Positions 22,923 to 35,675 of a stretch of DNA of 61,144 nt are shown here, in pieces (the stretch's first letter is position 1; every line of letters begins with the position of its first letter). Where the stretch lies: the NCBI GenBank assembly GCA_944358825.1, contig CALVSA010000003.1, positions 1 to 61,144 on the forward strand, read 5' to 3'. The notes under the pieces were generated by a model that worked only from the letters and a program-made list of their open reading frames with translations, did no database searches and was not told the origin of the DNA. The position numbers and the translations under genes are program-made. This DNA is from an uncultured Bacilli bacterium (GTDB lineage: Bacteria > Bacillota_I > Bacilli_A > RF39 > UBA660).

Positions 22923-23022
22923 AAGATATTTAATTTTACACTTAATTGATAATTAATCTTAATAATATATTTTCAAACACGATTAAATATGATATAATTT
23001 AATCGTGAAAGGAAACAATAAT

Positions 23023-23610: not shown

Positions 23611-23651
23611 ATAAGAATACAAAAAACATAATTTAATAAATGAGGTTATAT

Positions 23652-24440
23652 ATGAAAAATGGATTTGAAATTTTATTAACTTATTGGTATGGCATACCTT
23701 CAATGCCAGAAAAACGTATTACAAAAATAAAGAATGCAGGATTTAAATATTTATCACTACATTGGTGTGATGAGTATGAATCTTCAAATGGCAAAAAAGA
23801 AGAAATTTTTAATAAGTGCAAATTAAATGGCTTACAAATATTGGTATTTCATTTGCCTTTTGAAAAAGCAAATGATTTATGGAAAAATGATGCTTCTGGC
23901 AGACAATTGTTTAGCATTTATAAGCAAAGCATATTAGATGCACATAATAATGATGTTGAGTATGTGGTTATGCATTTAAACTCTGATTCTAAAAAACTCG
24001 AAAATATCGAAATTGGTTTAAAAAGAATAGCTGCATTATTAAAATATGCCGAAGAACTTAATGTAAATATTGCTTTTGAAAATTTACAAACAGAAGATCA
24101 ATTAGATAAAATTGAAGACATGTTAAATAATTATTCAAGTGCATGTTTATGCTTTGATGTAGGTCATAACAATATTAAATATAGTGATTTTATTAATTTA
24201 CATAAAGAAAAAATCAAAATAATGCATATTCATGATAATTTAGGAAAAACTGATACTCATCAAACACCTTTTACTGGTACCGTGAATTGGAAAAAAGTAT
24301 ATAATTTAATTAAAGAAATAAATAATCATTGCTTATTTGTGTTTGAAGTGCAGAAGCAAGCGAATGAAGAAGAAACCCCTTTTTTAAAAAATGTATATCT
24401 TGCTTATGAAAAAATGAAAAAAGATTTAGAAAAAAATTAA
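23652..24440 (+). CDS. Xylose isomerase-like TIM-barrel protein (sugar phosphate isomerase/epimerase, inosose dehydratase-type fold)
   Basis: Pattern of VMHL, IAFENL, CFDVGH and MHIHDN metal-ligand-like motifs. Confidence 0.65.
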   Translation: MKNGFEILLTYWYGIPSMPEKRITKIKNAGFKYLSLHWCDEYESSNGKKEEIFNKCKLNGLQILVFHLPFEKANDLWKNDASGRQLFSIYKQSILDAHNNDVEYVVMHLNSDSKKLENIEIGLKRIAALLKYAEELNVNIAFENLQTEDQLDKIEDMLNNYSSACLCFDVGHNNIKYSDFINLHKEKIKIMHIHDNLGKTDTHQTPFTGTVNWKKVYNLIKEINNHCLFVFEVQKQANEEETPFLKNVYLAYEKMKKDLEKN

Positions 24441-24455
24441 AGGAGAGATATTTAT

Positions 24456-25685
24456 ATGGGTAAAAATATTACATTAGTTTTAAAAGAAGATTTGGGACAT
24501 ACAAATTTTGAAATTGTCGAAAGAAAAGGCCAAGGTCATCCAGATACTTTGAGTGATACTTTAGCTGAAAAATTATCAAATGCTTATTCTAAATATACTT
24601 TGAAACATTTCGGAGCCGTTTTACATCACAATTTTGATAAAGTAGGAATGATGGGAGGTAAGTGTGAGGTTGAATTTGGCCATGGGAAAATGATAGAACC
24701 TATAAGAGTTTTATTAAATGGTCGTGCATCTAGTAAATTTGGTAATACTATAATAAATGTAAAAGAGCTTCTTATTAATGAGACCAAAAAGTTTTTTAAC
24801 GATAACTTTCCAATGCTTAATTTTGAAAAAGATGTTAGAATCATATATGAAGTTAGTGAAGGAAGTAGTCCTGGTGGTGTAAAAGGACATGAAAGTAAAA
24901 GACATAGATGGTTTGAGCCAGAAACTTTAGATGACCTTAATGAATTAAAACATCTTAATTGTAATGATACTTCAATGGGATGTGCGTTTTATGGATATAG
25001 TATATTAGAAAACATGGTGTATAAATTGGAAAGAAAATTAAATTCAAAAGAATTTAAGAAAAATCATATATGGCTAGGTTCTGATATAAAAATTATGGGT
25101 TTTAGAGAGGATAATAAAGTGAGTATTACAATGTGCATACCTCAATTATGTACTTATGTAAGGAATGTTACAGAATATTTAAATAATAAAGCTCAAATAG
25201 CGGAATATATTAAAACCTTTATTCATAGTTTATATCCAAATGTACAATTGGAATTGTATATTAATACAAGAGACAAAATTGATGAAAACAACACTGATTT
25301 ATATTTAACATTTACTGGTTCATCAATTGAAATGGGTGATGAAGGATTTGTTGGACGTGGTAATAGGATGGGAGGATTAATAACTCCAAGAAGATTTTAT
25401 ACAATGGAAGGCATTTGCGGGAAAAACCCTATTTATCATACTGGGAAAATGTATTGTGTTGCCTCATATATAATTGCAAAAAAAATATATGAGAAATGTG
25501 GAGTTAATTGTTCAGTAGAAATGATTGGTCAAAGTGGGCAGCCTTTATCTGACCCATTTAAAATTACTATTTATACCGATAAAAAAATTGATTATGATGT
25601 TTGTGATAAAATTGCAAGTAATGTATTAAATGACTTTGGTAAAATATCAATGGAGATTTTAGATGAAAAATATCCAATGTGTTAA
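24456..25685 (+). CDS. Archaeal-type S-adenosylmethionine synthetase (methionine adenosyltransferase, PF01941-like)
   Basis: EIVERKGQGHPDTLSD, LHHNFDKV, NDTSMG, SDIKIMG, LTFTGSSIEMGDEGFVGRGNRMGGLITP and GKNPIYHTGKMY align convincingly with the Methanocaldococcus MAT sequence as I recall it. Confidence 0.85.
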   Translation: MGKNITLVLKEDLGHTNFEIVERKGQGHPDTLSDTLAEKLSNAYSKYTLKHFGAVLHHNFDKVGMMGGKCEVEFGHGKMIEPIRVLLNGRASSKFGNTIINVKELLINETKKFFNDNFPMLNFEKDVRIIYEVSEGSSPGGVKGHESKRHRWFEPETLDDLNELKHLNCNDTSMGCAFYGYSILENMVYKLERKLNSKEFKKNHIWLGSDIKIMGFREDNKVSITMCIPQLCTYVRNVTEYLNNKAQIAEYIKTFIHSLYPNVQLELYINTRDKIDENNTDLYLTFTGSSIEMGDEGFVGRGNRMGGLITPRRFYTMEGICGKNPIYHTGKMYCVASYIIAKKIYEKCGVNCSVEMIGQSGQPLSDPFKITIYTDKKIDYDVCDKIASNVLNDFGKISMEILDEKYPMC

Positions 25686-26610
25686 TATTCCAGATAAATA
25701 TGCTCCATATAGTATTGAAATTGAATTAACAAACTATTGTAATGCTCACTGTGTTTTTTGTCCTAATAATTGTTCAAAAAGGGAAAGAGGATTTATTGAT
25801 AAACAAAAATTATATGATTTTTTAGAAAAACAAAAAGCAATTAAAGTTAATAATTGGTTTAATAAAAAATTTAACACTTTAGATTTTCCAAAGATAGTAT
25901 ATGCAGGGTTAGGTGAACCACTTTTGCACCCAGATTTTTTAGAAATAGTTAAATACACTAAAGAACTAGGGTTTCAAGTAGAAATAGTAACTAATGGTTT
26001 ATTACTAAATAAAAAAATTGTAGATAAATTGATAGAATTAAAAGTTGATTCTCTAGCAATTAGTCTACATAGCATGAATAAAGAAATTTATAATAAAATT
26101 ACAGGACTGTCTTTAAATAATGTTTTACCAAACGTTACTTATGCTTTAGAACAATATAAAAAAACCAATGCAAAAATTCAACTATGGCGAATAAAGCCCC
26201 TTTCAAACATGAAACAAGAAACAAAAAAAGATGAGGAAATATATAAAGAATATGTAAAATCATATCCTAATGTTATTGTATTAGGACCATCAGAGCCTTG
26301 GGAACGAGACATGAATAATCCTACTTCTTGTAATTTAGTAAATGATGATCCAAGTAATGGAATATGGTGTAGAAAATTGTATTATACCTTAAATATTGCA
26401 TATACTGGAGAAATTGTAATGTGTTGTAATGATTTTAATAGAATTTCTGTTAATATGGGAAACATCTTTGAATCTGAAAATCTTTCGGAAACTATAAGAG
26501 AAAAGATTCTAAATAAACAATTTATTCCAGAAATATGCAAAAAATGTCGAAGATGGAAAGATAATGAATTAGAAGAAATATTTGAAAAATATGGTGATAA
26601 AAATGAATAA
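25663..26610 (+). CDS. Radical SAM enzyme with a Cys-rich C-terminal (SPASM/twitch-like) extension
   Basis: CxxxCxxC as LTNYCNAHCVFC. A GLGEPLL glycine-rich motif. C-terminal cysteines (WCRK, MCCND, CKKC). Overlaps the SAM synthetase gene by 23 nt. Confidence 0.85.
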   Translation: MKNIQCVNIPDKYAPYSIEIELTNYCNAHCVFCPNNCSKRERGFIDKQKLYDFLEKQKAIKVNNWFNKKFNTLDFPKIVYAGLGEPLLHPDFLEIVKYTKELGFQVEIVTNGLLLNKKIVDKLIELKVDSLAISLHSMNKEIYNKITGLSLNNVLPNVTYALEQYKKTNAKIQLWRIKPLSNMKQETKKDEEIYKEYVKSYPNVIVLGPSEPWERDMNNPTSCNLVNDDPSNGIWCRKLYYTLNIAYTGEIVMCCNDFNRISVNMGNIFESENLSETIREKILNKQFIPEICKKCRRWKDNELEEIFEKYGDKNE

Positions 26611-27331
26611 AAAGAGAATATTATTATTTTGTGCCCATCCAGATGATGCTGAATTATGTGCTGGTGGAACAATAAAAAAATTTGTAAGCAAAGGTTATAA
26701 AGTTAAAGTTGTAATTATGACTAATGGTGGTGTAGGAAATAACGATATGAACGTTTCTAAAACAGTAGATATTAGAAACGTAGAGATGCAAAATGCGGCA
26801 AGTTTTTTAAATTATGAAGTTAAAAATTTAAATATAAACGATGGTGAAGTGTTACCTACATTAGAATATAGAAAACTTGTTATTGATGAAATAAGAAAGT
26901 TTAAACCAGATATTATTATGACTCATAGAAGCAATGATTATCACCCAGATCATCGATACACAAGTATATTAGTTCAAGATTCATTAGTACTAATTTGTAC
27001 TGGAAATTATTGTCCAACATATAGTCCTTTAAATTATACCCCAATAACTTTATTTTTCTGGGATAGGTTTACGAAGCCAAATTCATTTAATGCTGATATT
27101 GTATATGATATAACAAATGAATTTGAAGATAAAGTAGAAGCTTTATCAAAACACAAATCACAATATAAAAGTATAGATGAATGTAGAAATGTTTTAATTG
27201 ATATTAATAATGAGTTGAAACAAAATATTGAATCAAGCTACAAATATATTGAAGCATTTGAAATTTGTGAGTATGCAAAAAAAGATGAATTAATAGCATT
27301 TTTAGAGTCAAAAAGCAAAATTTTTGGTTAG
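26603..27331 (+). CDS. PIG-L/LmbE-family N-deacetylase
   Basis: ILLFCAHPDDAELCAGG and DYHPDHRYTS motifs. Confidence 0.85.
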   Translation: MNKKRILLFCAHPDDAELCAGGTIKKFVSKGYKVKVVIMTNGGVGNNDMNVSKTVDIRNVEMQNAASFLNYEVKNLNINDGEVLPTLEYRKLVIDEIRKFKPDIIMTHRSNDYHPDHRYTSILVQDSLVLICTGNYCPTYSPLNYTPITLFFWDRFTKPNSFNADIVYDITNEFEDKVEALSKHKSQYKSIDECRNVLIDINNELKQNIESSYKYIEAFEICEYAKKDELIAFLESKSKIFG

Positions 27332-27342
27332 GAGTAGATAAA

Positions 27343-28551
27343 ATGAAAGTTTTGTTAATATCAAATTATAATATTGTCGAAGGTAGAGGCCCAATGTTTA
27401 GATTAATGAATATGATTCCATATTTAAATACAAAATGCAATATAGAATTGTGTTCATTAGGCAAGATTGATGACGTAGTAATAAAAATGGCATTAGAAAA
27501 CAAGATTAAATATTATGAAATCAGTTATAAAACAAAAGGGTGGTTTGTTAAAAATACTAAAGAAATAGCTAATAATATAATTGATATAGCAAACCAAGAT
27601 AATATAGATTTAATTGTTTTGACTTGGGAAATTTGGGATGTCGCAGTAGCTTTACAGAATAATATAAGTAAATGTAATGCAAAATTAGTAATAACTATGC
27701 ATTCTATCCCTTTTGTTGCTGCATCAATTAAGACAGGTAATTATGTAATAGATTATATAAAGAAAATTTTATTTGAACCACGATTTATGATTAAAAAATA
27801 TTTAGTTTGTCGCATTCCACAAGTAAATCATTATATGCATAAATTTAATATATTAACAATGACTAAAACGGTAGAATATAAATTAAATAAATACTTTAAA
27901 AATATTAATTTGTATTTAGCATATCCAGGGTATGCTACTAGTCTACCATTAATACCACAAAACATAAATTATCAATATGATTTTGTTTATATGGCGAAAT
28001 TTGAATATGGTAAAGGTATATATGAAATCATTAAAATAATGAAAGAAATAAAAAAAGTAAAACCCAATTTCAAATTAGCTTTAGTTGGTGATTTTACATT
28101 TAAAGATGAAGAAATCAAATTTTTTAATCGAATAAAAAAATTTGATTTAGAAAATAATATAAATTATTTAGGTTGGCTGGATGGTACAAAAAAATATGAA
28201 ACCATTATAAATAGCAAAATATTTTTATATCCTTCATTTGCAGGAGATACGTTTTCAATTTGTTTGTTAGAAGCACTTTCGTGTGGTAAACAAATTGTTT
28301 GTTACAATGTTCCTTTTGTAAGAGATAATTTTAATATTAAAACTGTACATAAAATTCCAGTATTTAAAAATAAGTTATTTGCCCAAAAAGCAATTGAACT
28401 TTTAAAAGAAAAAAATTACAATGTTAATGAATCAATTAATTTTGTAAAAAATAACTTTTCTTCATGGAATAAAGTGGCTAATGCAGAATATAATGCATAT
28501 AAAAATATTATGGATAATAAAAATGGACAAACAAATATTAAAAGATTATAA
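27343..28551 (+). CDS. GT-B fold glycosyltransferase (GT4/GT1-like)
   Basis: C-terminal FLYPSFAGDTFSICLLEALSCGKQIVCYNVPF (EX7E-type region). Confidence 0.75.
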   Translation: MKVLLISNYNIVEGRGPMFRLMNMIPYLNTKCNIELCSLGKIDDVVIKMALENKIKYYEISYKTKGWFVKNTKEIANNIIDIANQDNIDLIVLTWEIWDVAVALQNNISKCNAKLVITMHSIPFVAASIKTGNYVIDYIKKILFEPRFMIKKYLVCRIPQVNHYMHKFNILTMTKTVEYKLNKYFKNINLYLAYPGYATSLPLIPQNINYQYDFVYMAKFEYGKGIYEIIKIMKEIKKVKPNFKLALVGDFTFKDEEIKFFNRIKKFDLENNINYLGWLDGTKKYETIINSKIFLYPSFAGDTFSICLLEALSCGKQIVCYNVPFVRDNFNIKTVHKIPVFKNKLFAQKAIELLKEKNYNVNESINFVKNNFSSWNKVANAEYNAYKNIMDNKNGQTNIKRL

Positions 28552-29350
28552 TTTGAAAAACATTACATTAAAGTGTAAATCCAACTATGGCATTATATAT
28601 GAAGCTATTTCTGAAGATTATAATAAACTTATAGTAAAAATAAATTTTGACAAAAAAAATTATCATGATTCGTGCAAGTATTATACTTATTTTAAAAATA
28701 TGAAATTATGTAAAATGTATGAAAATGATGACAAAAATAATATTCAATTATTAGAATATATTAATGGCGATAATCTTTTTTGTATTTCTGATTTTAATAA
28801 AAGAATTAAAATAGGATATGATTACTTTTATAATTGGTCAACAAAAATAATAACCATAAATAATGATAATGACATATCTTTTGAAAACCAGGTTAATGTA
28901 ATGATTGATAACTTAAAAAATATGTCGCTATCTAGTAAAGTTATTAAATTAGTAACAGAATTTGAGAAAAAAGCAAAACACTTTTTTCAAACATATAATA
29001 ATTCATACTTGCTACATGGTGATTTACATCATTATAATATGCTATATGATGGCAAAACAGTTACAGCAATTGATTTATCACCACGGCAAGCTAGTTTTGC
29101 AATCGAAATAGCAAAGTTTATTGAAAATGAATTATTTAATAATATAGGTAATATATTTCAAATTTTAAATGCATTTTTATTAATATATAAATTTGAAATC
29201 ATAAGCTGTGATGAATTATTAGAGGGATTATTTATTGATTCATGTTACAGAACATTTGATACTTTCATTGAAAATAAAGATGTCAGTGAACTTGAAAAAG
29301 GAATATATATGAATTATGAAATCTTAAAATTTATGGAAAGTAGGGCATAA
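28523..29350 (+). CDS. APH/choline-kinase-family phosphotransferase
   Basis: Brenner-type motif LLHGDLHHYNMLYDG...AIDLSP. The start is uncertain (28481 or 28523). Confidence 0.65.
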   Translation: MDKQILKDYNLKNITLKCKSNYGIIYEAISEDYNKLIVKINFDKKNYHDSCKYYTYFKNMKLCKMYENDDKNNIQLLEYINGDNLFCISDFNKRIKIGYDYFYNWSTKIITINNDNDISFENQVNVMIDNLKNMSLSSKVIKLVTEFEKKAKHFFQTYNNSYLLHGDLHHYNMLYDGKTVTAIDLSPRQASFAIEIAKFIENELFNNIGNIFQILNAFLLIYKFEIISCDELLEGLFIDSCYRTFDTFIENKDVSELEKGIYMNYEILKFMESRA

Positions 29351-29352
29351 AA

Positions 29353-30489
29353 ATGAATTATAAGGAATTTGAACAAATAATAATAGGTTATATGCAAGCA
29401 AAAGGATGGACTTTATCTATTGCTGTTGATGGCTCGGAAAGACTTGCTTTAGAAAAAAATTATAATCCTAATTTTACCAATAAATCAAAAGATAAATTTT
29501 TGATAAATGATGATGAATTTTATGATAGATTAAAAAAGGGATTAGATAAATTAAATATTACATATAAAAATTTTAATTCCATTGATAATCCGTATACAGA
29601 TACCGATTTTATTGTTGCTGGATTACAAACCATAAATCCTATTATATATGGCAGTTCTGAAGTACAACTTGATAAATGGATTTCTTTTCAACCAGTTATT
29701 AGATTAATTGAAAAAGATAAATGCGGAGTGGAGGAAGGATATTTTTCTTCCTTTGTCAATGTTTGTGAAATTTCGACAAATACAAATTATGCTGACTATA
29801 TTCAAGATATTGAAAATTGGATTGATATTTTATCTATCTGTTCTCTACATTCAAGTGGTTTACAATTAATTTTAAAACCAACTACCACAGCATATAATGG
29901 AGTAGGATTAGAATTTAATTATAAAGGCTTGGAACTTGGTCAAGCAAATTTATATAATTTTAATATTAATGAACAAAATGTAATGATGTCTGACTTTGGA
30001 TTTGGCTATGAGAGAATTTTGTGGGCAATTAATGGCGGAAAAAATTTTTTTGCACCATTTGTATCTAAATATGATTATTTATTTGGCGATTTAAAGGAAG
30101 TTGATAGAATAAGAACACTTACTTTAATGGCAATGTCTGGTATTAAAGGTGGTTCATCTGGCAAATCAAAACACATGAGAAATTTAGTTAAAGAAGCTTT
30201 TGGGATTAATATTATTCCTAACATTAACGAACAAATAAAACAGTATTATGAATTTTATTCAAAATTTATTTCTTCATTGATTGAATTAAATGAAGTAAAT
30301 GGTATAATTAATAATGAAGTAGCATTGAATATAAAGAAAAAAATATTAAAACAAGCAGGCATTAGTAATTATTCATCTTTAAGCAGTGCAGATATTGAAA
30401 CTGTTTGTAAAACAATTTTTCTTGACAAAGTGCACAAAGAGAATAAATTTACAAAAATAAAGGAAATTAAAGGAGGTAAAAGAAAATGA
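29353..30489 (+). CDS. Stand-alone class IIc (AlaRS-like) aminoacyl-tRNA-synthetase catalytic-core homologue; candidate amino acid ligase
   Basis: The order of segments VAGLQTI / QPVIRL / YFSSFVNVCEIS / NYADYIQDIENWIDIL / LGQANLYNF / SDFGFGYERILWAINGG parallels AlaRS AGM..F / QKCIR / HHTFFEMLGNFS / DYFK..AI.WAW / EIWNLVF / DTGMGLERL. At 378 aa it has no room for the tRNA-binding or editing domains. Confidence 0.5.
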   Translation: MNYKEFEQIIIGYMQAKGWTLSIAVDGSERLALEKNYNPNFTNKSKDKFLINDDEFYDRLKKGLDKLNITYKNFNSIDNPYTDTDFIVAGLQTINPIIYGSSEVQLDKWISFQPVIRLIEKDKCGVEEGYFSSFVNVCEISTNTNYADYIQDIENWIDILSICSLHSSGLQLILKPTTTAYNGVGLEFNYKGLELGQANLYNFNINEQNVMMSDFGFGYERILWAINGGKNFFAPFVSKYDYLFGDLKEVDRIRTLTLMAMSGIKGGSSGKSKHMRNLVKEAFGINIIPNINEQIKQYYEFYSKFISSLIELNEVNGIINNEVALNIKKKILKQAGISNYSSLSSADIETVCKTIFLDKVHKENKFTKIKEIKGGKRK

Positions 30490-31100
30490 AATTATTATTA
30501 GCAGGTGGTGGAGAACCTGAACAAGTGAAACCACTAGACGAATATTTTGCAAATTACGTAAAAGAAGGTAAGGTTTTATATATTCCTGTTGCAATGTACA
30601 AAATTCCTTATGATGAATGTGAAAGTTGGTTTAGGGAAACATATGCAAAATATAATATATATAATATAGATGTATGTACAGATTTGAAAAAGGCTCCCAA
30701 TTTAAATGAATATAAAGCCGTATTTATAGGAGGAGGAAACACTTTTAAATTATTAAAAGAAATTAAAGAAAGTAATTTCGATTATGCTCTTACAGAATAT
30801 TTAAAAAATGGAGGCTTTGTTTATGGTGGTTCAGCTGGTGCTATTATTTTTGGAAAAACAATAAAAACTTCTAGCCATGCCGATAAAAATTTTGTTAATC
30901 TTAAAGATTTAAATGGTTTAAATTTAATAAAAGGATATGATGTTTGGTGTCATTATAATGAAAAAAAGGATTTAAATAATGTTTTAAAATTAGAAAATTC
31001 TACTGTTGTACTTTATGAAGAATCTGGTGTTTTATTTGATGGCGAAAAATTTATAACAGTTGGTAAAAATCATTTAATTTTTCCTGATGATTTTGAATAG
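30486..31100 (+). CDS. Peptidase S51 (dipeptidase E/cyanophycinase-like) family protein
   Basis: FIGGGNTFKLL and the nucleophile elbow YGGSAGAIIFG. Confidence 0.7.
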   Translation: MKLLLAGGGEPEQVKPLDEYFANYVKEGKVLYIPVAMYKIPYDECESWFRETYAKYNIYNIDVCTDLKKAPNLNEYKAVFIGGGNTFKLLKEIKESNFDYALTEYLKNGGFVYGGSAGAIIFGKTIKTSSHADKNFVNLKDLNGLNLIKGYDVWCHYNEKKDLNNVLKLENSTVVLYEESGVLFDGEKFITVGKNHLIFPDDFE

Positions 31101-31168
31101 ATATAAAAATTTATATTCAAAGAAAAATAGTTTAAATATACGTTTTAATCATAAAGGTGGTGTTTTAA

Positions 31169-32107
31169 ATTTTTAAAAGTGATGAACAAGAGCAAGAATA
31201 TATTTTAAAGTTAAATGAAATATTAAGTGCTTTTCTTAAATCTAATGAGAAAATAGTAGAAATAGAAAACACTTCTGGGGGTATTGCTAATAAAGTTATT
31301 AAACTTACTACTAACTTTAATCATAAATATATATTCAAAATTTATAAAAAGAAAAGGAATCAAATACTTCCATTTGAACTAATGGACTTTTTAGAAGAAA
31401 ATGATATAAATGTTGTAAAACCTAAAAATAAAAAACCAATTATCTTTGAAAACACGGATTGTTATTTATTTGATTATATAGAAAATGTTCCAACAATTTT
31501 TGATAATGCAACGGCATCTTATTTAATTAATCTTTTAAAGATAATTTCAAGATTTAAAACATCCATCAATAATGATGAATATTATTATAAAATAAAATGC
31601 GATAATGAATATAAACTTTTAAAGGAAAAGAAAAATTATATACTCGATGATGATATTGTTAATCGAGTTTTAAAAAGATATGATCAAATTAAAAATCTAC
31701 CTATAAATAATGAAAAGGAGATAGTTCATTCTGATATTAGTACATCAAACTTATTGACAGCAAAAGATGGATACTATTTAATTGATTTTGATGAAGTTAG
31801 ATTTACTTCTAAATTATATGATTTGGCAGTTATTTTGGTAAAATTTTTCTTCGATGGTAAAAATATTGATATAAAAAATGCTAAATCATTCGTTGATTTA
31901 TATTTGAAAAATTTTAGCGAATATGATTATAAAGACTGTTACAATGTTTTTGAATATTATGTTGTAAAACAATTATTAGAAAAATTTTCGGATTATGAAA
32001 TATATGGTATTGATTTATATTCAAAGCAACAGCAACAAGATGATTTTAGAAATTGGATTTATTATTTTGAACATTTAAATTTAATTAAACAAATTTTTGG
32101 TTTATAA
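31169..32107 (+). CDS. APH-family kinase with no canonical start codon for its N-lobe (possible ATT start)
   Basis: The frame is open from 31169. The N-lobe (NTSGGIANKVIKL..., YIFKIY) lies upstream of the first ATG at 31382. The catalytic motif is VHSDISTSNLL...LIDFDE. The SD aaaggtgg is at 31153-31160. Confidence 0.55.
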   Translation: MFKSDEQEQEYILKLNEILSAFLKSNEKIVEIENTSGGIANKVIKLTTNFNHKYIFKIYKKKRNQILPFELMDFLEENDINVVKPKNKKPIIFENTDCYLFDYIENVPTIFDNATASYLINLLKIISRFKTSINNDEYYYKIKCDNEYKLLKEKKNYILDDDIVNRVLKRYDQIKNLPINNEKEIVHSDISTSNLLTAKDGYYLIDFDEVRFTSKLYDLAVILVKFFFDGKNIDIKNAKSFVDLYLKNFSEYDYKDCYNVFEYYVVKQLLEKFSDYEIYGIDLYSKQQQQDDFRNWIYYFEHLNLIKQIFGL

Positions 32108-32179
32108 TTTATGTAAAATTTAAAAATTTAATCAACATAAAATAAGCACATTATGACATGAATTAGACATAAAATAAAC

Positions 32180-32207
32180 TTGACTCCGTTTTGTCAAGTG
32201 CTATAAT
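32180..32207 (+). promoter_or_regulatory. Near-consensus sigma-A promoter with extended -10, overlapping a 6-bp inverted repeat
   Basis: TTGACT (32180-32185), a 16-nt spacer, then TGcTATAAT (-10 at 32202-32207). CTTGAC...GTCAAG is a dyad across the spacer. Confidence 0.6.
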
Positions 32208-32233
32208 ATAGTAAAATATTAAGAAATTATGTG

Positions 32234-32261
32234 GAGAGGAACTAAATTCTTCTCTTTTTTT
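32234..32261 (+). terminator. Strong intrinsic terminator only about 30 nt downstream of that promoter
   Basis: GAGAGGAA-ctaaa-TTCTTCTC (8 bp including one G-U pair), followed by a T7 run. Confidence 0.65.
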
Positions 32262-32324
32262 CTTTGAAAGAAGGTGTTATATAAAATAAAATTAAAGGAA
32301 GCACATATTTTTGATGAATTAGTA

Positions 32325-32580
32325 ATAAGTGGTCACTATTTATAAAAATAGTAGCCACTTTTTTTGTTGGCATTACAAGAACATTTATATATGAGTAGCC
32401 ACTTCTACTTATAAAAGTAGTCATTTTTGCAAGTGCAAAAATAGTAGTGACACCACTATAATCCCTATATTTTATAAAAGGTAAATGAATATGTGGTGTC
32501 GTTCTTCTTATGCTCATTAAAAATATGCAGTATTTTTACTATAAAAAACACCCCCAAAATAGCAAAAGTGGCTACTCATA
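32325..32580. repeat. Iteron-like repeats of the (A/T)AGTAGCCACTT family, direct and inverted
   Basis: aatagtagccacttttt (about 32347), atgagtagccacttct (32391-32404), aaagtagtcattttt, aatagtagtgacaccact, the inverted copies aagtggtcactattt (about 32327) and aaaagtggctactcat (about 32565). Confidence 0.7.
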
Positions 32581-32603
32581 ATTTTAAGAAAGGAAAAATA
32601 AAT

Positions 32604-32921
32604 ATGATATTTAGAACAAATAAAATTACAAATTATACGAAGATTGATAATAGATATTTGGAAGATAAAAACATTTCTTTAAAGGCTAAAGGATTATTAA
32701 CTTTAATGTTATCTTTACCAGATAATTGGAAATTTAATGTTAATGGTTTATGTCTTTTATGTAAAGAAAGTAAAAATGCAGTTAATAGCGCAATAAAAGA
32801 ATTAAAGGAAAATAAATATTTAGAGGTAGAAAAAACTTATGATGAAAGTGGGAGATTTATTTATGAATATATCATTTATGAATATCCAGATGACCCAAAA
32901 GGACATCTCGATTTACCATAA
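32604..32921 (+). CDS. Winged-helix replication-initiator/DnaD-like N-terminal domain protein (short)
   Basis: MIFRTNKITNYTKIDNRYLEDKNISLKAKGLLTLMLSLPDNWKFNVNGL...AVNSAIKELKENKYLEV resembles Firmicute phage/plasmid replisome-organiser N-termini. ATG 32604 is preferred (SD aaaggaaaa). Confidence 0.5.
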   Translation: MIFRTNKITNYTKIDNRYLEDKNISLKAKGLLTLMLSLPDNWKFNVNGLCLLCKESKNAVNSAIKELKENKYLEVEKTYDESGRFIYEYIIYEYPDDPKGHLDLP

Positions 32922-33187
32922 CTGGATAATTAGATACTATTAATAACTAATATATTAATAAATTAAAAATAAATAGATAAAGTTGATAAAACAAAAATTT
33001 AATTTTTTAATAAAAACCTCTTGAAAATTCTATTTTTTTAAGTGATAAATATTAAAACAAAAAATTAGTTTATTGATACTTAATTTAACCTACAAGAGGT
33101 TTTAATATTGTTCATAATCAGTTATTAGTATAAAAATTTAAAGCCTCTTAAAATGGCTTAAATTAAAAATGAAAGGATGTGCTTAAT

Positions 33188-33613
33188 ATGTATTTAAAAA
33201 ATGCAACTAATGAGGTTAAAAAAATAACAGAGAAAATAATTGAACTGGATAAGGAAAATAAACTTAAATTTATCAGTTATGTTTTAAACTTATGGAATAA
33301 TAATCAAATTAATAGTTTAAATGAAACTAACCCTGATTTATTAGATGATAGTATTTGTATTGATATATTTAATCCAAGTAGTATTGATTACTATTATTTA
33401 GTAATTAAACTAAATGAATATTGGAATTATAAATATAAACTTTATCAGCTTTATCGAAAAGAATATAAAAGTGTAATAACTTTATTTGAAAAGTTATCTT
33501 TTAAAGAAAAGATAGATGTACTTGCAGAAATATTTTTAATTTTAGAACATGATAAATTACTACCAGATAATGTTGATGGCTATGAAATTGCTAGAATGAT
33601 TATAAAATATTAA
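33188..33613 (+). CDS. Hypothetical protein
   Basis: ORF with the SD aaaggatg. No recognisable domain. Confidence 0.4.
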   Translation: MYLKNATNEVKKITEKIIELDKENKLKFISYVLNLWNNNQINSLNETNPDLLDDSICIDIFNPSSIDYYYLVIKLNEYWNYKYKLYQLYRKEYKSVITLFEKLSFKEKIDVLAEIFLILEHDKLLPDNVDGYEIARMIIKY

Positions 33614-33636
33614 ATATTGAAAAACTAAATTGTTAT

Positions 33637-33704
33637 TTGAAAACTTAATATTTTCGGATAATAATTTAGTCTAATTTTGTCCTTATAAGGTATTAAGTTT
33701 TCAA
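33637..33704. repeat. 12-bp perfect inverted repeat enclosing a 10-bp palindrome, upstream of the recombinase operon
   Basis: TTGAAAACTTAA (33637-33648) pairs with TTAAGTTTTCAA (33693-33704). CCTTATAAGG at 33681-33690 lies between them. Confidence 0.8.
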
Positions 33705-33778
33705 TTTTTGTAGAACTTATTACCTTAAGTTCTTTTTTAGTTTTTATAAAAATAAACTTAAAAGAAAGGACAGAGTAT

Positions 33779-33985
33779 ATGGAAATTACAAATAAAATTC
33801 CATCTAGAATAATTGAATTAGAAACAAGTATCAAACTGCTTGAATACTTAAAAAGAAAAAATGTTATAGATGATGGAATGTATAACTTTTGTATTAATAA
33901 ATTAATGAATAAACTTACATTGGAAAAAAGTAAAATGAAAGATGATTATATAAATAATATTGATAATTACAAAATATTAACTTAG
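33779..33985 (+). CDS. Small hypothetical protein immediately upstream of recombinase 1 (candidate accessory factor/RDF)
   Basis: 68-aa ORF ending 10 nt before the recombinase ATG. No motif recognised. Confidence 0.35.
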   Translation: MEITNKIPSRIIELETSIKLLEYLKRKNVIDDGMYNFCINKLMNKLTLEKSKMKDDYINNIDNYKILT

Positions 33986-33995
33986 GAGGTAACTC

Positions 33996-35675
33996 ATGGA
34001 CTTATATACAGTTAGGAATAATATTATGAAAGGTATTCCCTTGCAAGAATTAAAGTTAAATGTTTGTTTTTATGCCAGAGTATCAACAGATAAAGATGAG
34101 CAGTTGCATTCCTTATCTGCTCAAGTATCTTTTTTTAATGATTATATAAGTAAAGTTCCTAACTGGCACTTTATAGGTTCCTATATTGATGAAGGTATTA
34201 GTGGAACATCAGTTAAAAAACGTGAAGAATTTTTAAGAATGATAGAAGATGCTAAAAAGCATAAGTTTGATTTAATATTAACGAAAGAAATATCCAGGTT
34301 TTCAAGAAGTACTTTGGATAGTATCAAATATACACAGGAGTTATTGCAAGATGGTGTTGGGGTCTATTTTTTAAATGATAATATTAATACTATCTTACCT
34401 GATTCCGAACTTAGACTTACAATAATGTCATCGATTGCTCAAGATGAGGTGCGAAAACTATCAGAAAGAGTATCTTTCGGTATGAAAAGAAGTATTGATA
34501 GTGGTACTGTGTTAGGTTGTTCCAATATTTATGGTTATGTAAAAGATAAAGGAAAACTTGTTATTGATGAAAAAGAGGCTAAAATGATTAAAATTATCTT
34601 CGATAGATATGCCAATACCACCGATGGTTTATCTAAAGTATCAAAGTATTTATATAGCTTAGGTTATAAAAATAAAAAGGGTAAAAGAATAGATACAACG
34701 ATACTAACTAGAATTATTGAAAATCCTAAATATAAAGGATATTATTGTGGTCATAAAACGAAAGTATTAGATTACCGTACTAAAAAGAAGAAAAAATTAA
34801 ATGAATCGGATTGGATTATTTATAAAGATAACGAAAATGTCCCACCAATCGTATCGGAAGAATTATGGAAAAGAGCTAACAAAAAATTAAAAGAAAGGCA
34901 AGATAGTTTTACTAATAGAGCAGTTAATAAAAAAGTATTTCAAAATAGATATACTTATTCAGGTAAAATTTATTGTGGATGTCATAATCTTACATATCAT
35001 AGATCATCTGCTGGTAAAAGAAAAAATAATCCTGTATGGGAATGCCAAGTATATAGAAAAGAAAGTTTAAAGGGTTGTTCTAATCCTAGAGTGTTTGAAT
35101 CTGAATTAGATATAATTTTTAAGGATATGCTTGGTAAATTATTGAAAAAAAGAAAGTATATTTTCGATGACATATTAAATGACTGTAAAAATTATTTAGA
35201 AACCAATAATAATGAATCTGAAATAAAAAATATAGAATCTAAAACTTTAATGTTTAATAATAAAAAAGATAAATTATTAGAACTTGTTATGGAAGAATAT
35301 ATATCTAAAGAAGATTATAAAAAACAAATAGATTTAATTAATGAAGAAATAATTACTAATCAAACAAAACTAAATGAATTACAAAATAATAAGCAAGATA
35401 AAAACTATATAGAAAATAAAATTAAGGAACTAAAAAAGATGTTAGATAATTGTTTAACTGATGATAAGTGTTTCAGTGATATATTTAATGAATTGATTGA
35501 TAGAATTTATGTTTATAAAGAAAAGGACAAAAAGATAAAACTAGATATTTATATAAAAACAGGAGAAAGTGTTAATACATTCTCTGATAATTTAGGTAGA
35601 AAGTTTCATTTAATAGACAACGTTACAACAAATAACTGCAGTAAGTGCAGCAATCAATGGAGGAACTTTGTATAA
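33996..35675 (+). CDS. Large serine recombinase (resolvase catalytic domain, recombinase domain, zinc ribbon, coiled coil)
   Basis: FYARVSTDKDEQLHSLSAQ catalytic Ser region, LTKEISRFSRS, IENPKYKGYY, Cys cluster CGCH...C...C, and a Lys/Glu-rich coiled coil. Strong SD taggaggt. The last 14 sense codons are read from host PBP DNA beyond attR. Confidence 0.92.
   Translation: MDLYTVRNNIMKGIPLQELKLNVCFYARVSTDKDEQLHSLSAQVSFFNDYISKVPNWHFIGSYIDEGISGTSVKKREEFLRMIEDAKKHKFDLILTKEISRFSRSTLDSIKYTQELLQDGVGVYFLNDNINTILPDSELRLTIMSSIAQDEVRKLSERVSFGMKRSIDSGTVLGCSNIYGYVKDKGKLVIDEKEAKMIKIIFDRYANTTDGLSKVSKYLYSLGYKNKKGKRIDTTILTRIIENPKYKGYYCGHKTKVLDYRTKKKKKLNESDWIIYKDNENVPPIVSEELWKRANKKLKERQDSFTNRAVNKKVFQNRYTYSGKIYCGCHNLTYHRSSAGKRKNNPVWECQVYRKESLKGCSNPRVFESELDIIFKDMLGKLLKKRKYIFDDILNDCKNYLETNNNESEIKNIESKTLMFNNKKDKLLELVMEEYISKEDYKKQIDLINEEIITNQTKLNELQNNKQDKNYIENKIKELKKMLDNCLTDDKCFSDIFNELIDRIYVYKEKDKKIKLDIYIKTGESVNTFSDNLGRKFHLIDNVTTNNCSKCSNQWRNFV
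35614..35644 (+). other. attR of element 1
   Basis: Element-end repeat TAGACAAC (35614-35621), core CAACAA (35626-35631) and host half-site TGCAGTAA (35637-35644). Confidence 0.7.

What the first reader, a model, noticed from the sequence alone, without database searches (positions are those of the whole stretch)
29353..30489. Stand-alone AlaRS-like catalytic core lacking tRNA-binding and editing domains
The 378-aa ORF shows, in the correct order, degenerate counterparts of the class IIc AlaRS core segments, ending in FGFGYERILWAINGG (compare DTGMGLERL..VLQG). It is far too short to hold the tRNA-recognition, editing or C-Ala domains.

It sits between a kinase and an S51 peptidase in the cargo operon.

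Truncated aaRS paralogues are known to act as amino acid:small-molecule or amino acid:carrier ligases. Examples include MshC and the AsnA-type and SerRS-like amino acid:carrier protein ligases. That role would fit here.
Basis: inference. Interest (0 to 1): 0.6.

Follow-up and report, generated by a model that had tools for sequence, protein, structure and literature searches.

The report
Truncated AlaRS-like small-molecule aminoacylating enzyme
This gene encodes a shortened relative of the enzyme that loads alanine onto tRNA; it sits in a mobile sugar-building operon of a gut bacterium and belongs to a widespread, unstudied gene module, so it most likely attaches a small amino acid (probably serine) to a sugar- or nucleoside-type metabolite rather than serving protein synthesis.

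Summary
The ORF at 29353-30489 is real. Its AlphaFold model matches archaeal AlaRS far better than any other class II synthetase (Z 26 against about 13). A profile of 104 relatives hits A. fulgidus AlaRS at E 2e-29.

It keeps the catalytic core and the first, helical part of the tRNA-recognition domain. It lacks the Mid2 barrel, the editing domain and C-Ala. The host has a normal AlaRS elsewhere.

The adenylate-pocket residues (R117, F134, E194, D214, E220, R221) are near-universal in the family. The alanine-selecting Val is replaced (N199 here).

The family has at least 361 cluster representatives, all unnamed. It travels with an S51 Ser-His-Glu hydrolase, an archaeal-type SAM synthetase and, repeatedly and independently, a SerRS. 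Lineage-specific neighbours make amines: PIG-L, DegT, carbamoyltransferase.

In this window the gene order PIG-L, GT4, kinase, AlaRS-like, S51 mirrors the BshA/BshB and MshA/MshB/MshC logic.

Best reading: an amide-forming aminoacylase, probably serine-specific, acting on a small-molecule amine. I favour ATP-driven activation; Ser-tRNA-driven transfer, as in AcmF of ascamycin, is the close rival.

The scan has noted this module before on other DNA (at least 8 genomes). No biochemistry exists for it.

The parts
29353..30489 (+). AlaRS-like ORF (P0001, 378 aa plus stop)
   Evidence: ORF and translation. AF2 model with pLDDT 84.8. AlaRS fold at Z 26. Family profile against archaeal AlaRS at E 2e-29.
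29353..29502 (+). N-terminal extension (residues 1-50) of the archaeal AlaRS type. The Zn-ribbon cysteines present in most family members are lost here.
   Evidence: VIA ranges start at residue 1 only for archaeal AlaRS and at about 50 for bacterial and human AlaRS. The family consensus CxxC...C..C aligns to A. fulgidus KRCPKCGK...CGDPPC.
29689..29703 (+). Motif 2 strand QPVIR. R117 corresponds to E. coli AlaRS R69.
   Evidence: hhalign and HMM alignments. R117 is present in 104 of 104 members and P114 in 104 of 104.
29752..29754 (+). F134, the counterpart of the adenine-stacking Phe of AlaRS motif 2
   Evidence: Aligned to LTLF-EM of 2ztg. Present in 103 of 104 members. Role taken from PMC12143591.
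29932..29949 (+). Pocket strand E194-L-G-Q197-A-N199. It corresponds to AlaRS E209-I-W-N212-I-V214 and to the E216..Q219 pattern of AcmF.
   Evidence: HMM alignment to 2ztg GLEVATLVF. Position 199 is variable in the family (N/G/S/V/I/A). AcmF residues come from PMC12945691.
29992..30015 (+). Motif 3, DFGFGYER. D214 corresponds to E. coli D235, G216 to G237, and R221 is the motif 3 Arg.
   Evidence: hhalign at 84% probability. D214 in 102 of 104 members, E220 in 104 of 104, R221 in 102 of 104.
30043..30360 (+). Helical Mid1-like subdomain (residues 231-336) carrying the DRIRT...G..R motif
   Evidence: VIA alignment runs to model residue 336 against chain residue 429. HMM domain 2 aligns to 2ztg 335-422. 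hhalign aligns it to E. coli ADHIRS...RGYVLRRIIRRA.
30361..30486 (+). Low-confidence C-terminal helix and basic tail KGGKRK. The tail is encoded by the Shine-Dalgarno AGGAGG (30471-30476) of the next gene.
   Evidence: pLDDT falls to 42-74. Sequence read directly.
30486..31100 (+). S51 (PepE-like) serine hydrolase, translationally coupled by an ATGA overlap
   Evidence: Pfam Peptidase_S51 at E 1e-25. GxS116AG, H156 and E178 are conserved in the partner alignment A4. Immediately downstream of the AlaRS-like gene in 51 of 79 loci. Nearest PDB entries are Lmo0363 and PepE.
28481..29350 (+). RIO/APH-like small kinase directly upstream
   Evidence: Pfam RIO1 at 26 bits. Homologues lie directly beside the AlaRS-like gene in L001, L003, L005, L006 and L066 (upstream) and L067 (downstream).
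27343..28551 (+). GT4 glycosyltransferase, BshA-like
   Evidence: Pfam Glycos_transf_1. NCBIfam BshA, weak. The only PDB sequence hit is BshA 5d00.
26582..27331 (+). PIG-L/LmbE de-N-acetylase, BshB1-like. It would expose a sugar amine.
   Evidence: Pfam PIG-L at E 2e-28. NCBIfam BshB1 at 116 bits, below its cut-off. PDB hits: diacetylchitobiose deacetylase, 2ixd and BshB1 6p2t.
25663..26610 (+). Radical SAM/SPASM enzyme
   Evidence: Pfam Radical_SAM plus SPASM. The best PDB hit is BtrN 4m7s at E 4e-7, which is weak.
24456..25685 (+). Archaeal-type SAM synthetase (MAT), a core partner of the family
   Evidence: Pfam AdoMet_Synthase at 347 bits. 253 bits to S. solfataricus MAT 4hpv with all motifs kept. 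It is the only MAT found in the genome. Within four genes of the AlaRS-like gene in 49 of 90 loci.
23640..24440 (+). Xylose-isomerase-like TIM barrel (AP_endonuc_2)
   Evidence: Pfam at E 4e-21. Recurs in L005, L006, L066 and L067, and an AP_endonuc_2 gene also lies about 3.5 kb from the AlaRS-like gene in L042.
31382..32107 (+). Second APH-like kinase at the end of the operon
   Evidence: Pfam APH at 24 bits. Conserved in L044-L046.

Best explanation
P0001 is a stand-alone enzyme derived from archaeal-type AlaRS. It keeps the class II aminoacyl-adenylate pocket but has lost everything that makes AlaRS a tRNA(Ala)-specific, proofreading synthetase.

Proposed action (inferred):
- It binds a small alpha-amino acid and ATP and forms the aminoacyl-adenylate. 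The amino acid is most likely serine, judged from the recurrent SerRS partner and the replaced alanine-selecting Val.
- It passes the aminoacyl group to an amine on the pathway intermediate, making an amide.
- In this window the acceptor is most likely the 2-amino group of a GlcN-glycoside made by the GT4 and the PIG-L deacetylase encoded just upstream. The aglycone is a cyclitol- or nucleoside-type unit worked on by the TIM-barrel and radical SAM enzymes. This is the step that MshC or BshC performs in mycothiol or bacillithiol synthesis.
- The S51 hydrolase encoded on the overlapping downstream gene is proposed to remove that aminoacyl group again, for self-protection, proofreading or pro-drug handling. 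The APH-like kinases are proposed to mask or activate hydroxyls.

Shown: the fold, the homology, which residues are retained or replaced, and the gene-neighbourhood conservation.
Inferred: the substrate, the ATP dependence, the acceptor and the role of S51.
For: Fold and homology: Z 26 to archaeal AlaRS; profile E 2e-29.

Adenylate pocket is kept:
- R117 104/104, F134 103/104, E194 75/104 (plus Q/D), D214 102/104, E220 104/104, R221 102/104.
- In AlaRS these residues hold the alpha-phosphate, stack the adenine and bind the alpha-amino group (PMC12143591).

Alanine selector is not kept: position 199, equivalent to Val214/Val204, is N here and A/S/G/N/V/I across the family. V204A raises Ser activation in AlaRS.

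It is not the housekeeping enzyme: a 913-aa AlaRS lies on contig C16.

tRNA(Ala)-specific parts are missing: Mid2, editing and C-Ala. The G3:U70-reading Asn position is Ser268.

Amine-making enzymes recur next to family members:
- PIG-L (window, L003).
- DegT with or without GFO/IDH (L084, L117, L178, L179), and a class III aminotransferase with GFO/IDH (L043).
- Carbamoyltransferase, translationally coupled (L090, L041).

Window gene order is PIG-L, GT4, kinase, AlaRS-like, S51. The GT4 hits only BshA in the PDB, and the PIG-L hits BshB1/LmbE.

The S51 catalytic triad is intact and the gene is adjacent in 51 of 79 loci.

The island and many cassettes lack a SerRS, so the enzyme must work without a dedicated aa-tRNA supplier.
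Against: - No biochemistry exists for any member of the family.
- The only characterised truncated AlaRS-like enzyme, AcmF, is aa-tRNA-dependent, yet it keeps its counterparts of R117, F134 and E194 and even the E-x-x-Q pattern seen in P0001. Retained pocket residues therefore do not prove ATP use; they could hold an adenosine-type acceptor.
- SerRS was recruited next to the family several times, sometimes translationally coupled. This fits a Ser-tRNA supplier at least as well as a resistant target.
- The helical Mid1 subdomain, which contacts the acceptor stem in AlaRS, is retained.
- Serine is inferred from gene neighbours only, and this window has no SerRS in the island.
- The four-gene core cassettes have no GT4 or PIG-L, so the acceptor proposed here cannot be the family's general acceptor.
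- The role of the always-present SAM synthetase is unexplained by this model, except as a supply for radical SAM enzymes.
Confidence: 0.42

Rival explanations
1. AcmF-type aminoacyl-tRNA-dependent transferase. The pocket holds an adenosine- or sugar-type acceptor instead of ATP. The aminoacyl group comes from Ser-tRNA(Ser) or another aa-tRNA, made by the cluster's SerRS where present and by the host's SerRS in this window. S51 plays the part of the hydrolase AcmE.
For: - AcmF is a truncated AlaRS-like protein (aminoacylation plus tRNA-recognition domains). It transfers Ala, Gly or Ser from charged tRNA to a sulfamate NH2. A cluster aaRS (AcmD) acts as supplier and resistant copy, and a hydrolase (AcmE) reverses the step (PMC12945691).
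- P0001 shares AcmF's E-x-x-Q pattern (E194..Q197 against E216..Q219).
- SerRS lies within four genes in 15 of 28 well-covered loci. It lies directly beside the AlaRS-like gene, with a gap of at most one base, in L041 (upstream) and in L115 and L133 (downstream).
- Cassette SerRSs need at least 4 separate origins on the tree. One locus (L084) carries a methanogen-type SerRS instead. Any SerRS can supply Ser-tRNA at once, whereas resistance must be evolved.
- tRNA-Ser genes lie beside four loci.
- The Mid1 helical subdomain is retained.
- Carbamoyltransferase-coupled members (L041, L090) would offer a carbamate NH2, the carbon isostere of AcmF's sulfamate NH2.
Against: - AcmF has Glu in place of the alpha-amino-binding Asp and is reported to lack most ATP/Ala-activation residues. 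This family keeps Asp (102/104) and an intact motif 3 GxGxER.
- The family lacks Mid2, and in P0001 the G3:U70-reading Asn position is Ser.
- The window's island, and L001/L002 within the stretches held, have no SerRS.
- The tRNA-Ser enrichment is not significant (5 of 26 tRNA genes).
- Kinship with AcmF could not be tested because its sequence was not to hand.
Confidence: 0.3
2. The enzyme binds SAM, made by the partner synthetase, in the adenylate pocket as an aminoacyl-adenylate look-alike. It then either N-acylates SAM's alpha-amine, giving a seryl-SAM-type SerRS inhibitor, or transfers part of SAM to an acceptor.
For: - An archaeal-type SAM synthetase lies within four genes in 20 of 28 well-covered loci and in the minimal four-gene cassettes that have no radical SAM enzyme.
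- SAM carries adenosine plus an alpha-amino acid at about the spacing of an aminoacyl-adenylate (chemical reasoning).
- The residues that hold adenine, the anionic group and the alpha-amine are the most conserved ones.
- An albomycin-like precedent exists: a seryl amide on an amino-acid nucleoside that inhibits SerRS, with a resistant SerRS in the cluster (PMC9032320, listed; its chemistry is from my own knowledge).
Against: - This is pure inference; no class II aaRS fold is known to use SAM.
- The window's MAT keeps all normal MAT motifs, so it may simply feed the radical SAM enzyme.
- It does not explain the GT4, PIG-L and DegT neighbours.
Confidence: 0.1
3. It is still a tRNA synthetase of a sort: a minimal, editing-free AlaRS or SerRS-like paralogue that charges or mischarges a tRNA. 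It might act as a drug-resistant spare or as a toxin.
For: The catalytic residues and the Mid1 subdomain are retained. The element is mobile and carries an AbiEi-type gene.
Against: - It lacks Mid2 and the Asp/Asn readers. E. coli AlaRS fragments shorter than about 461 residues do not charge tRNA efficiently (from memory). The model aligns only up to about E. coli residue 402.
- The alanine pocket is altered.
- It is always embedded in biosynthetic-type operons.
- It has no PADLOC match.
Confidence: 0.05
4. It is a catalytically dead scaffold or regulator, like HisZ or the Pol gamma accessory subunit.
For: Several aaRS paralogues are non-catalytic (general knowledge).
Against: The residues conserved across members only 20-25% identical are exactly the catalytic ones: R117, F134, D214, E220 and R221.
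Confidence: 0.03

Closest known systems
AcmF, with AcmD and AcmE, of ascamycin biosynthesis (Streptomyces sp. 80H647; PMC12945691; Zheng et al., ACS Catal 2024, 14:3533)
   Same: - A truncated AlaRS-like protein used to put a small amino acid in amide linkage on a small molecule.
- It is accompanied by a full-length aaRS copy and a hydrolase that reverses the step.
- The E-x-x-Q pocket pattern is shared with P0001.
   Different: - AcmF is aa-tRNA-dependent. It has Glu for the amino-binding Asp and is said to lack most ATP/Ala-activation residues.
- Its partner aaRS is AlaRS, not SerRS.
- Its hydrolase is an alpha/beta-hydrolase, not S51.
- Its acceptor is a nucleoside sulfamate.
- There is no SAM synthetase in that module.
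- Sequence kinship with AcmF was not tested.
Archaeal alanyl-tRNA synthetase, N-terminal 430 residues (A. fulgidus 2ZTG/3WQY, P. horikoshii 2ZZE)
   Same: - Same fold over residues 1-336 (Z 26).
- Shared N-terminal extension, motifs 2 and 3, and the Mid1 helices.
- Significant profile homology (E 2e-29).
   Different: - No Mid2, editing or C-Ala domains.
- Shorter motif 2 loop, with Gly129 where AlaRS has Arg.
- Shorter hairpin before motif 3.
- Val to Asn and Thr/Asn to Gln in the amino-acid pocket.
- Only 13-14% identity.
MshA/MshB/MshC (mycothiol) and BshA/BshB/BshC (bacillithiol) pathways
   Same: A GT4 GlcNAc transferase is followed by a PIG-L de-N-acetylase and then an enzyme that adds an amino acid to the freed GlcN amine. 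The window's GT4 and PIG-L are nearest to BshA and BshB1. Ino1 occurs in sister clusters (L067, L178, L179).
   Different: - The amino-acid-adding enzyme here has a class II AlaRS fold, not the class I CysRS fold (MshC) or the BshC fold.
- The amino acid is probably Ser, not Cys.
- Extra radical SAM, SAM synthetase, kinases and S51 are present.
- Both NCBIfam scores fall below the equivalog cut-offs.
SerRS-like amino acid:carrier-protein ligases, AsnA, and PoxA/EpmA (class II aaRS paralogues with non-tRNA acceptors)
   Same: A stand-alone class II catalytic core that activates an amino acid with ATP and passes it to a non-tRNA acceptor.
   Different: They derive from a different class II subclass (SerRS, AspRS or LysRS). 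No carrier protein or EF-P link was seen in the loci examined.
Albomycin cluster resistance gene abmK/serS2 (PMC9032320)
   Same: An extra SerRS sits inside a gene cluster whose product carries a seryl amide.
   Different: There is no AlaRS-like enzyme in that pathway as far as I know. Whether the SerRS copies here are resistant is untested.

Membership tests
Canonical alanyl-tRNA synthetase (class IIc) | Class II catalytic fold with AlaRS motifs 2 and 3 | tested here: met
   Z 26.1 to 2ztg. Profile E 2e-29. R117, F134, D214, E220 and R221 are conserved.
Canonical alanyl-tRNA synthetase (class IIc) | Complete tRNA-recognition domain (Mid1 plus Mid2) with the Asn/Asp pair that reads G3:U70 | tested here: not met
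   The alignment stops at 2ztg residue 429, i.e. Mid1 only. The Asn position is Ser268 in P0001 (N in 33 of 104 members). No sequence is left to form Mid2.
Canonical alanyl-tRNA synthetase (class IIc) | Editing domain and C-Ala domain | tested here: not met
   The protein is 378 aa with no Pfam domain hit at all. The host's real AlaRS is 913 aa.
Canonical alanyl-tRNA synthetase (class IIc) | Alanine-selecting pocket (E. coli N212 and V214) | tested here: not met
   Q197 and N199 occupy the aligned positions.
AcmF-type AlaRS-like aminoacyl-tRNA-dependent transferase | Truncated AlaRS with the aminoacylation domain plus (part of) the tRNA-recognition domain | tested here: met
   AcmF is described in PMC12945691.
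AcmF-type AlaRS-like aminoacyl-tRNA-dependent transferase | Asp to Glu (E232) and Asn to Gln (Q219) changes, with loss of most ATP/Ala-activation residues | tested here: inconclusive
   Q197 matches Q219, but D214 is kept (102 of 104) and motif 3 is intact. Only P0047 and P0106 have Glu.
AcmF-type AlaRS-like aminoacyl-tRNA-dependent transferase | A full aaRS and a de-aminoacylating hydrolase in the same cluster | tested here: inconclusive
   The hydrolase (S51) is present in the window. SerRS is absent from this island but present in sister loci L003, L006 and L067 and in many others.
AcmF-type AlaRS-like aminoacyl-tRNA-dependent transferase | Use of aminoacyl-tRNA as donor; sequence kinship with AcmF | not testable with these tools
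   This needs an enzyme assay.
MshC/BshC-type step (amino acid added to a GlcN amine) - functional class, not homology | Preceding GT4 GlcNAc transferase and PIG-L deacetylase in the same operon | tested here: met
   Both NCBIfam scores are below the equivalog cut-offs.
MshC/BshC-type step (amino acid added to a GlcN amine) - functional class, not homology | Class I CysRS-like (MshC) or BshC fold | tested here: not met
   The fold is class II AlaRS.
Amino acid:carrier-protein ligase | Adjacent phosphopantetheine carrier protein | tested here: not met
   There is no PP-binding family in any of the Pfam-annotated loci. None was found among the window's neighbours.
AlaRS-like / S51 / archaeal-type MAT / SerRS module (undescribed; seen before by this scan) | AlaRS-like gene followed by an S51 hydrolase, with an archaeal-type SAM synthetase nearby | tested here: met
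   Window: S51 overlaps the stop codon and the MAT lies 3.7 kb upstream in the same operon.
AlaRS-like / S51 / archaeal-type MAT / SerRS module (undescribed; seen before by this scan) | SerRS gene in the module | tested here: not met
   No SerRS lies in 22002-35675. The genome's single SerRS is on contig C40.

The most novel reading that the evidence does not exclude
The module makes a new kind of aminoacyl-adenylate mimic from SAM itself. The partner synthetase supplies SAM, which sits in the AlaRS-derived pocket as an adenylate look-alike. The enzyme serylates it, from Ser-AMP or Ser-tRNA, to give a seryl-SAM-type inhibitor of SerRS. The co-located SerRS is then the protected target and S51 the antidote. 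In gut Firmicutes this core has been elaborated with sugar and cyclitol chemistry and spreads on sporulation-gene-splitting mobile elements.
Probability: 0.1. Interest if true: 0.85.

Novelty: new variant of a known kind. Interest (0 to 1): 0.62.

Why it matters
Very few aaRS-derived enzymes are known to build natural products, and AcmF was described only in 2024.

This family is much larger:
- At least 361 clusters at 50% identity.
- It occurs in gut Bacilli, Clostridia and Alphaproteobacteria, in a Candidatus Gracilibacteria MAG, and in many unnamed groundwater and sediment metagenome contigs.
- It is entirely unnamed.
- It has a fixed set of partners: an S51 hydrolase, a SAM synthetase and often a SerRS.

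That partner set points to an unexplored class of aminoacylated metabolites, possibly translation or aaRS inhibitors made by gut and ultra-small bacteria.

Here the pathway rides on a serine-recombinase element that splits a sporulation PBP gene. It may therefore be a transmissible trait in animal gut communities.

The hypothesis is directly testable with a soluble 378-aa protein and a 9-gene operon.

Tried and rejected
- Complex prediction of the AlaRS-like protein (A1) with its S51 neighbour (A4) scored 0.00, i.e. no verdict. It is not used as evidence either way.
- hhalign in global mode gave a meaningless alignment. Local mode was used instead.
- The search for related loci with the 104-member alignment failed for lack of a conserved stretch. 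A1 and the GFGLER subset A3 were used instead.
- A dedicated tRNA was sought. tRNA-Ser genes flank L041, L049, L068 and L070, but Ser is only 5 of 26 tRNA genes in 811 kb and Leu is 7. The enrichment is not significant.
- Rfam at gathering threshold found only tRNAs. No T-box or riboswitch lies in the window or in four sister loci.
- Anti-phage defence reading: PADLOC matches only the AbiEi gene and, weakly, the radical SAM core. Nothing matches the AlaRS-like protein, S51 or the kinases.
- Expression: two chicken-gut metatranscriptome runs hold only about 200-nt contigs inside the upstream kinase gene and none on the ORF itself. DNA carry-over cannot be excluded.
- A sample of 399 genomes of the same class held no other true member; the other hits were the ordinary AlaRS. 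Host relatives therefore gave no comparative data.
- The upstream 306-aa ORF (22002-22922) is not related to the conserved 308-312-aa APH-like protein of sister clusters. It is absent from the BLAST maps of L044-L046, so it is not counted as part of the pathway.
- The idea that S51 is a glutamine amidotransferase subunit was dropped. The nucleophile is an invariant Ser in GxSAG with His and Glu partners, as in PepE.
Full report
**Observation**

The ORF 29353-30489 (+) is open and encodes 378 aa (P0001).

- The upstream ORF (28481-29350) is a weak RIO/APH-like kinase. It stops 2 nt before the ATG.
- The downstream ORF (30486-31100) is an S51 peptidase whose ATG overlaps the TGA stop.
- The AGGAGG Shine-Dalgarno sequence of the S51 gene lies inside the last codons of P0001 and encodes its basic tail KGGKRK. 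That tail should not be read as a nucleic-acid-binding feature.

**Is it AlaRS-like?**

P0001 alone hits nothing in Pfam, NCBIfam or PDB sequences. Three other lines settle the question.

- An AlphaFold2 model built on 18 relatives (pLDDT 84.8, pTM 0.84) has AlaRS as every top Foldseek match (E 3e-11).
- VIA-align gives Z 26.1 (rmsd 3.4, 326 residues) to A. fulgidus AlaRS, with model residues 1-336 aligned to chain residues 1-429. Bacterial and human AlaRS fragments follow at Z 23-25. GlyRS-alpha, SerRS and HisRS reach only about Z 13.
- An exhaustive profile search found 361 cluster representatives (291 at E<=1e-10), mostly 350-420 aa. A profile of 104 of them hits A. fulgidus AlaRS at E 2.2e-29 and P. 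horikoshii AlaRS at 3e-25, against about 1e-11 for bacterial AlaRS.

The family therefore descends from the archaeal type of AlaRS. Only archaeal structures align from residue 1. Most members keep the N-terminal CxxC...C..C ribbon of archaeal AlaRS, which P0001 has lost.

Residues about 231-336 are the helical Mid1 half of the tRNA-recognition domain. They include DRIRT...SGKSKHMR, which is homologous to DHIR...PSNxGRGYVLRR. The Mid2 barrel, the editing domain and C-Ala are absent. The genome has an ordinary 913-aa AlaRS on another contig.

**Active site**

Profile and hhalign alignments map the residues as follows:

| P0001 | E. coli AlaRS |
|---|---|
| R117 | R69 |
| F134 | the adenine-stacking Phe |
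| E194-L-G-Q197-A-N199 | E209-I-W-N212-I-V214 |
| D214 | D235 |
| G216 | G237 |
| E220-R221 | the motif 3 Glu-Arg |

In AlaRS these residues have known roles (PMC12143591):
- The motif 2 Arg binds the alpha-phosphate.
- The Phe and the motif 3 Arg sandwich the adenine.
- The Asp holds the alpha-amino group, and also a seryl hydroxyl.
- The Val touches the alanine methyl. Changing it to Ala raises serine activation.

Conservation across 104 members that are only 20-50% identical to P0001:
- R117 104/104, F134 103/104, D214 102/104, E220 104/104, R221 102/104.
- The Val position is N/G/S/V/I, and mostly Ala in the large environmental clade.
- The Arg of the AlaRS motif 2 loop is an invariant-type Gly (G129).

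So the adenylate and alpha-amine pocket is under strong selection, while the alanine selector is not.

**The gene belongs to a module**

The neighbourhoods of 90 loci from metagenomes and MAGs were labelled with custom HMMs.

- The S51 hydrolase is immediately downstream in 51 of 79 loci that have a downstream gene.
- In the 28 loci with at least three genes on each side, S51 occurs within four genes in 20, an archaeal-type SAM synthetase in 20 and a SerRS in 15.
- Kin are not independent. Collapsing the AlaRS-like proteins at 50% identity gives 29 groups, with S51 in at least 16, MAT in at least 14 and SerRS in at least 10. These are floors, because many contigs are short.
- A bare four-gene cassette (AlaRS-like, S51, MAT, SerRS) is the commonest form in groundwater and sediment metagenomes.
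- The S51 partners keep GGGNT, GxS116AG, H156 and E178, the PepE-type Ser-His-Glu triad. They are nearest to Lmo0363 and PepE in the PDB.
- The window's MAT keeps all archaeal MAT motifs (253 bits to 4hpv). It is the only MAT detected in this 91%-complete genome.

**SerRS link**

- On a maximum-likelihood tree of 29 cassette SerRSs and 21 SerRSs of the host's relatives, the cassette label needs 4-5 changes.
- The gut-type cassette SerRSs (L003, L006, L067) nest among ordinary Bacilli SerRSs of genomes that lack the AlaRS-like gene. The environmental ones form other clades.
- L084 carries a methanogen-type SerRS (tRNA_bind_4 plus tRNA-synt_2b) beside its MAT.
- In L041 the SerRS ends 1 nt before the AlaRS-like start codon. 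In L115 and L133 it follows directly.
- Repeated, independent recruitment argues for a functional tie to serine or SerRS.
- This window's island has no SerRS. The genome's single SerRS is on contig C40. P0001 nevertheless shares the pocket signature (Q197, A198, N199) with its SerRS-linked sisters L003, L006 and L067.

**What the acceptor may be**

Enzymes that create a nucleophilic nitrogen on a small molecule recur next to family members:
- PIG-L de-N-acetylase (window, L003).
- DegT aminotransferase with or without a GFO/IDH oxidoreductase (L084, L117, L178, L179), and a class III aminotransferase with GFO/IDH (L043).
- NodU/TobZ-type carbamoyltransferase, translationally coupled to the AlaRS-like gene (L090) or one gene away (L041).

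Other recurrent neighbours:
- Sugar and cyclitol enzymes: GT4, myo-inositol-1-phosphate synthase (L067, L178, L179), an AP_endonuc_2 TIM barrel, and an Stf0 sulfotransferase.
- Nucleotide-type enzymes: RelA/SpoT homologue, MazG, His-phosphatase, and deoxynucleoside kinase.
- Radical SAM enzymes.

In the window the operon reads: TIM barrel, MAT, radical SAM/SPASM, PIG-L, GT4, kinase, AlaRS-like, S51, kinase.
- The GT4's only PDB sequence hit is BshA.
- The PIG-L is nearest to chitobiose deacetylase, LmbE and BshB1.
- The radical SAM enzyme's best, weak PDB hit is BtrN, the aminocyclitol dehydrogenase of butirosin.

This is the MshA/MshB/MshC or BshA/BshB/BshC logic, and also the logic of the paromamine steps of aminoglycoside pathways (from general knowledge). 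The AlaRS-like enzyme sits where the amino acid is added to the freed amine. No carrier protein was seen in any annotated locus.

**Mechanism**

The only characterised truncated AlaRS-like enzyme is AcmF of ascamycin (PMC12945691).
- It takes Ala, Gly or Ser from charged tRNA and acylates a sulfamate NH2.
- AcmD, an extra AlaRS, supplies the aa-tRNA and resists the product.
- AcmE hydrolyses the product.

The parallel with AlaRS-like, SerRS and S51 is close, and P0001 even shares AcmF's E-x-x-Q pattern. There are differences, though. AcmF has Glu for the amino-binding Asp and is reported to lack most activation residues. This family keeps Asp and a perfect motif 3, lacks Mid2, and many cassettes, including this island, have no SerRS.

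I therefore favour ATP-driven self-activation followed by amide formation (0.42). The AcmF-type aa-tRNA route is the close rival (0.30). The retained pocket could equally hold an adenosine-type acceptor, so sequence alone cannot decide.

A bolder reading is that SAM itself sits in the pocket as an adenylate look-alike and is serylated. It would explain the constant MAT partner but rests on inference only (0.10). A residual tRNA-charging role and a dead scaffold are unlikely.

**Context and spread**

- The operon is cargo of a roughly 13.8-kb element bounded by a large serine recombinase (33996-35675). The element splits a class B PBP gene; the N-terminal part is at 20568-21821 and the C-terminal part at 35668-36291.
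- Near-identical copies occur in uncultured Bacilli MAGs (L044-L046) and in chicken-gut and other gut metagenomes of 12 studies.
- More distant versions occur in Clostridiales, in Candidatus Enterousia and another alphaproteobacterium, in a Candidatus Gracilibacteria MAG and in many unnamed environmental metagenome contigs.
- Only 1 of 399 sampled genomes of the host's class carries the family. This fits sporadic, horizontal spread.
- Every database name found for members is 'hypothetical protein'.

**Relation to earlier notes of this scan**

After I had found the module and AcmF, a look-up showed that the scan had already described the same AlaRS-like/S51/MAT/SerRS module on at least 8 other genomes, with the same nearest precedent. 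Those notes agree with this report but are not independent evidence.

New in this report:
- The gut-Bacilli version on a sporulation-gene-splitting element with BshA/BshB-like genes.
- The tree showing repeated SerRS recruitment, including a methanogen-type SerRS.
- The carbamoyltransferase-coupled and Ino1/DegT-coupled variants.
- The residue map to AcmF.

**Verdict**

The protein is a new, uncharacterised variant of a known kind, namely aaRS-derived small-molecule aminoacylating enzymes. Interest 0.62.

Noticed in passing
window 20568-21821 and 35668-36291, with 33996-35675: A class B PBP gene is split. PBP_dimer plus the first half of the transpeptidase domain lie upstream. The second half plus PASTA lie downstream. 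The insert of about 13.8 kb ends in a large serine recombinase, so the AlaRS-like operon is cargo of an intervening element.
   Followed up: partly
whole genome G000; window 24456-25685: No bacterial-type MetK was found in this 91%-complete genome. The island's archaeal-type SAM synthetase is the only MAT detected. Four of six same-genus genomes have a MetK match, each with one internal TAA.
   Followed up: partly
window 22002-23610: A full-length AbiEi antitoxin-type gene (PADLOC, 212 bits) has no recognisable AbiEii partner. The 306-aa ORF before it has no family hit. It is unrelated to the 308-aa APH-like protein of sister cluster L003 and absent from the BLAST maps of L044-L046.
   Followed up: partly
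window 30471-30489: The Shine-Dalgarno sequence AGGAGG of the S51 gene lies inside the AlaRS-like ORF. It dictates the ORF's conserved C-terminal KGGKRK tail, and the start and stop codons overlap as ATGA.
   Followed up: yes
L084:4739-6274: A methanogen-type SerRS (tRNA_bind_4 plus tRNA-synt_2b) sits beside the MAT in a GT4/DegT/GFO-IDH/AlaRS-like cluster from an environmental metagenome.
   Followed up: partly
L147-L171 (SerRS of the host's relatives): Related small-genome Bacilli carry one of two SerRS types that are only about 30% identical to each other. One genome (G020) has both. The host's own SerRS is of the type unlike the gut cassette SerRSs.
   Followed up: partly
L035-L038 (G014, G007, G012, G011): In four relatives the AlaRS match covers only Pfam positions 2-436, and the open frame is 583-613 aa instead of about 900. 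These genomes may have a naturally shortened housekeeping AlaRS.
   Followed up: no
L047:9459-12030: A decayed copy of the module. A RelA/SpoT fragment abuts an AlaRS-like gene that lacks its N-terminal half (209 aa). Two S51 genes follow.
   Followed up: no
L049:9626-9719; L041:1026-1117; L070:8111-8322; L068:6644-6728: tRNA-Ser genes lie next to four otherwise unrelated versions of the module; in L049 the gene is 276 nt upstream of the AlaRS-like gene. The pattern is suggestive given the SerRS link but not statistically significant.
   Followed up: partly
L001, L003, L067 (480-aa HD + RelA_SpoT + TGS genes): A short RelA/SpoT homologue opens the gut-type clusters that lack or precede the sugar genes. 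Its role in the pathway is unexplained.
   Followed up: no
window 28854-29092: Two chicken-gut metatranscriptome runs contain about 200-nt contigs identical to part of the kinase gene directly upstream of the AlaRS-like ORF. This is a weak hint that the operon is transcribed.
   Followed up: partly
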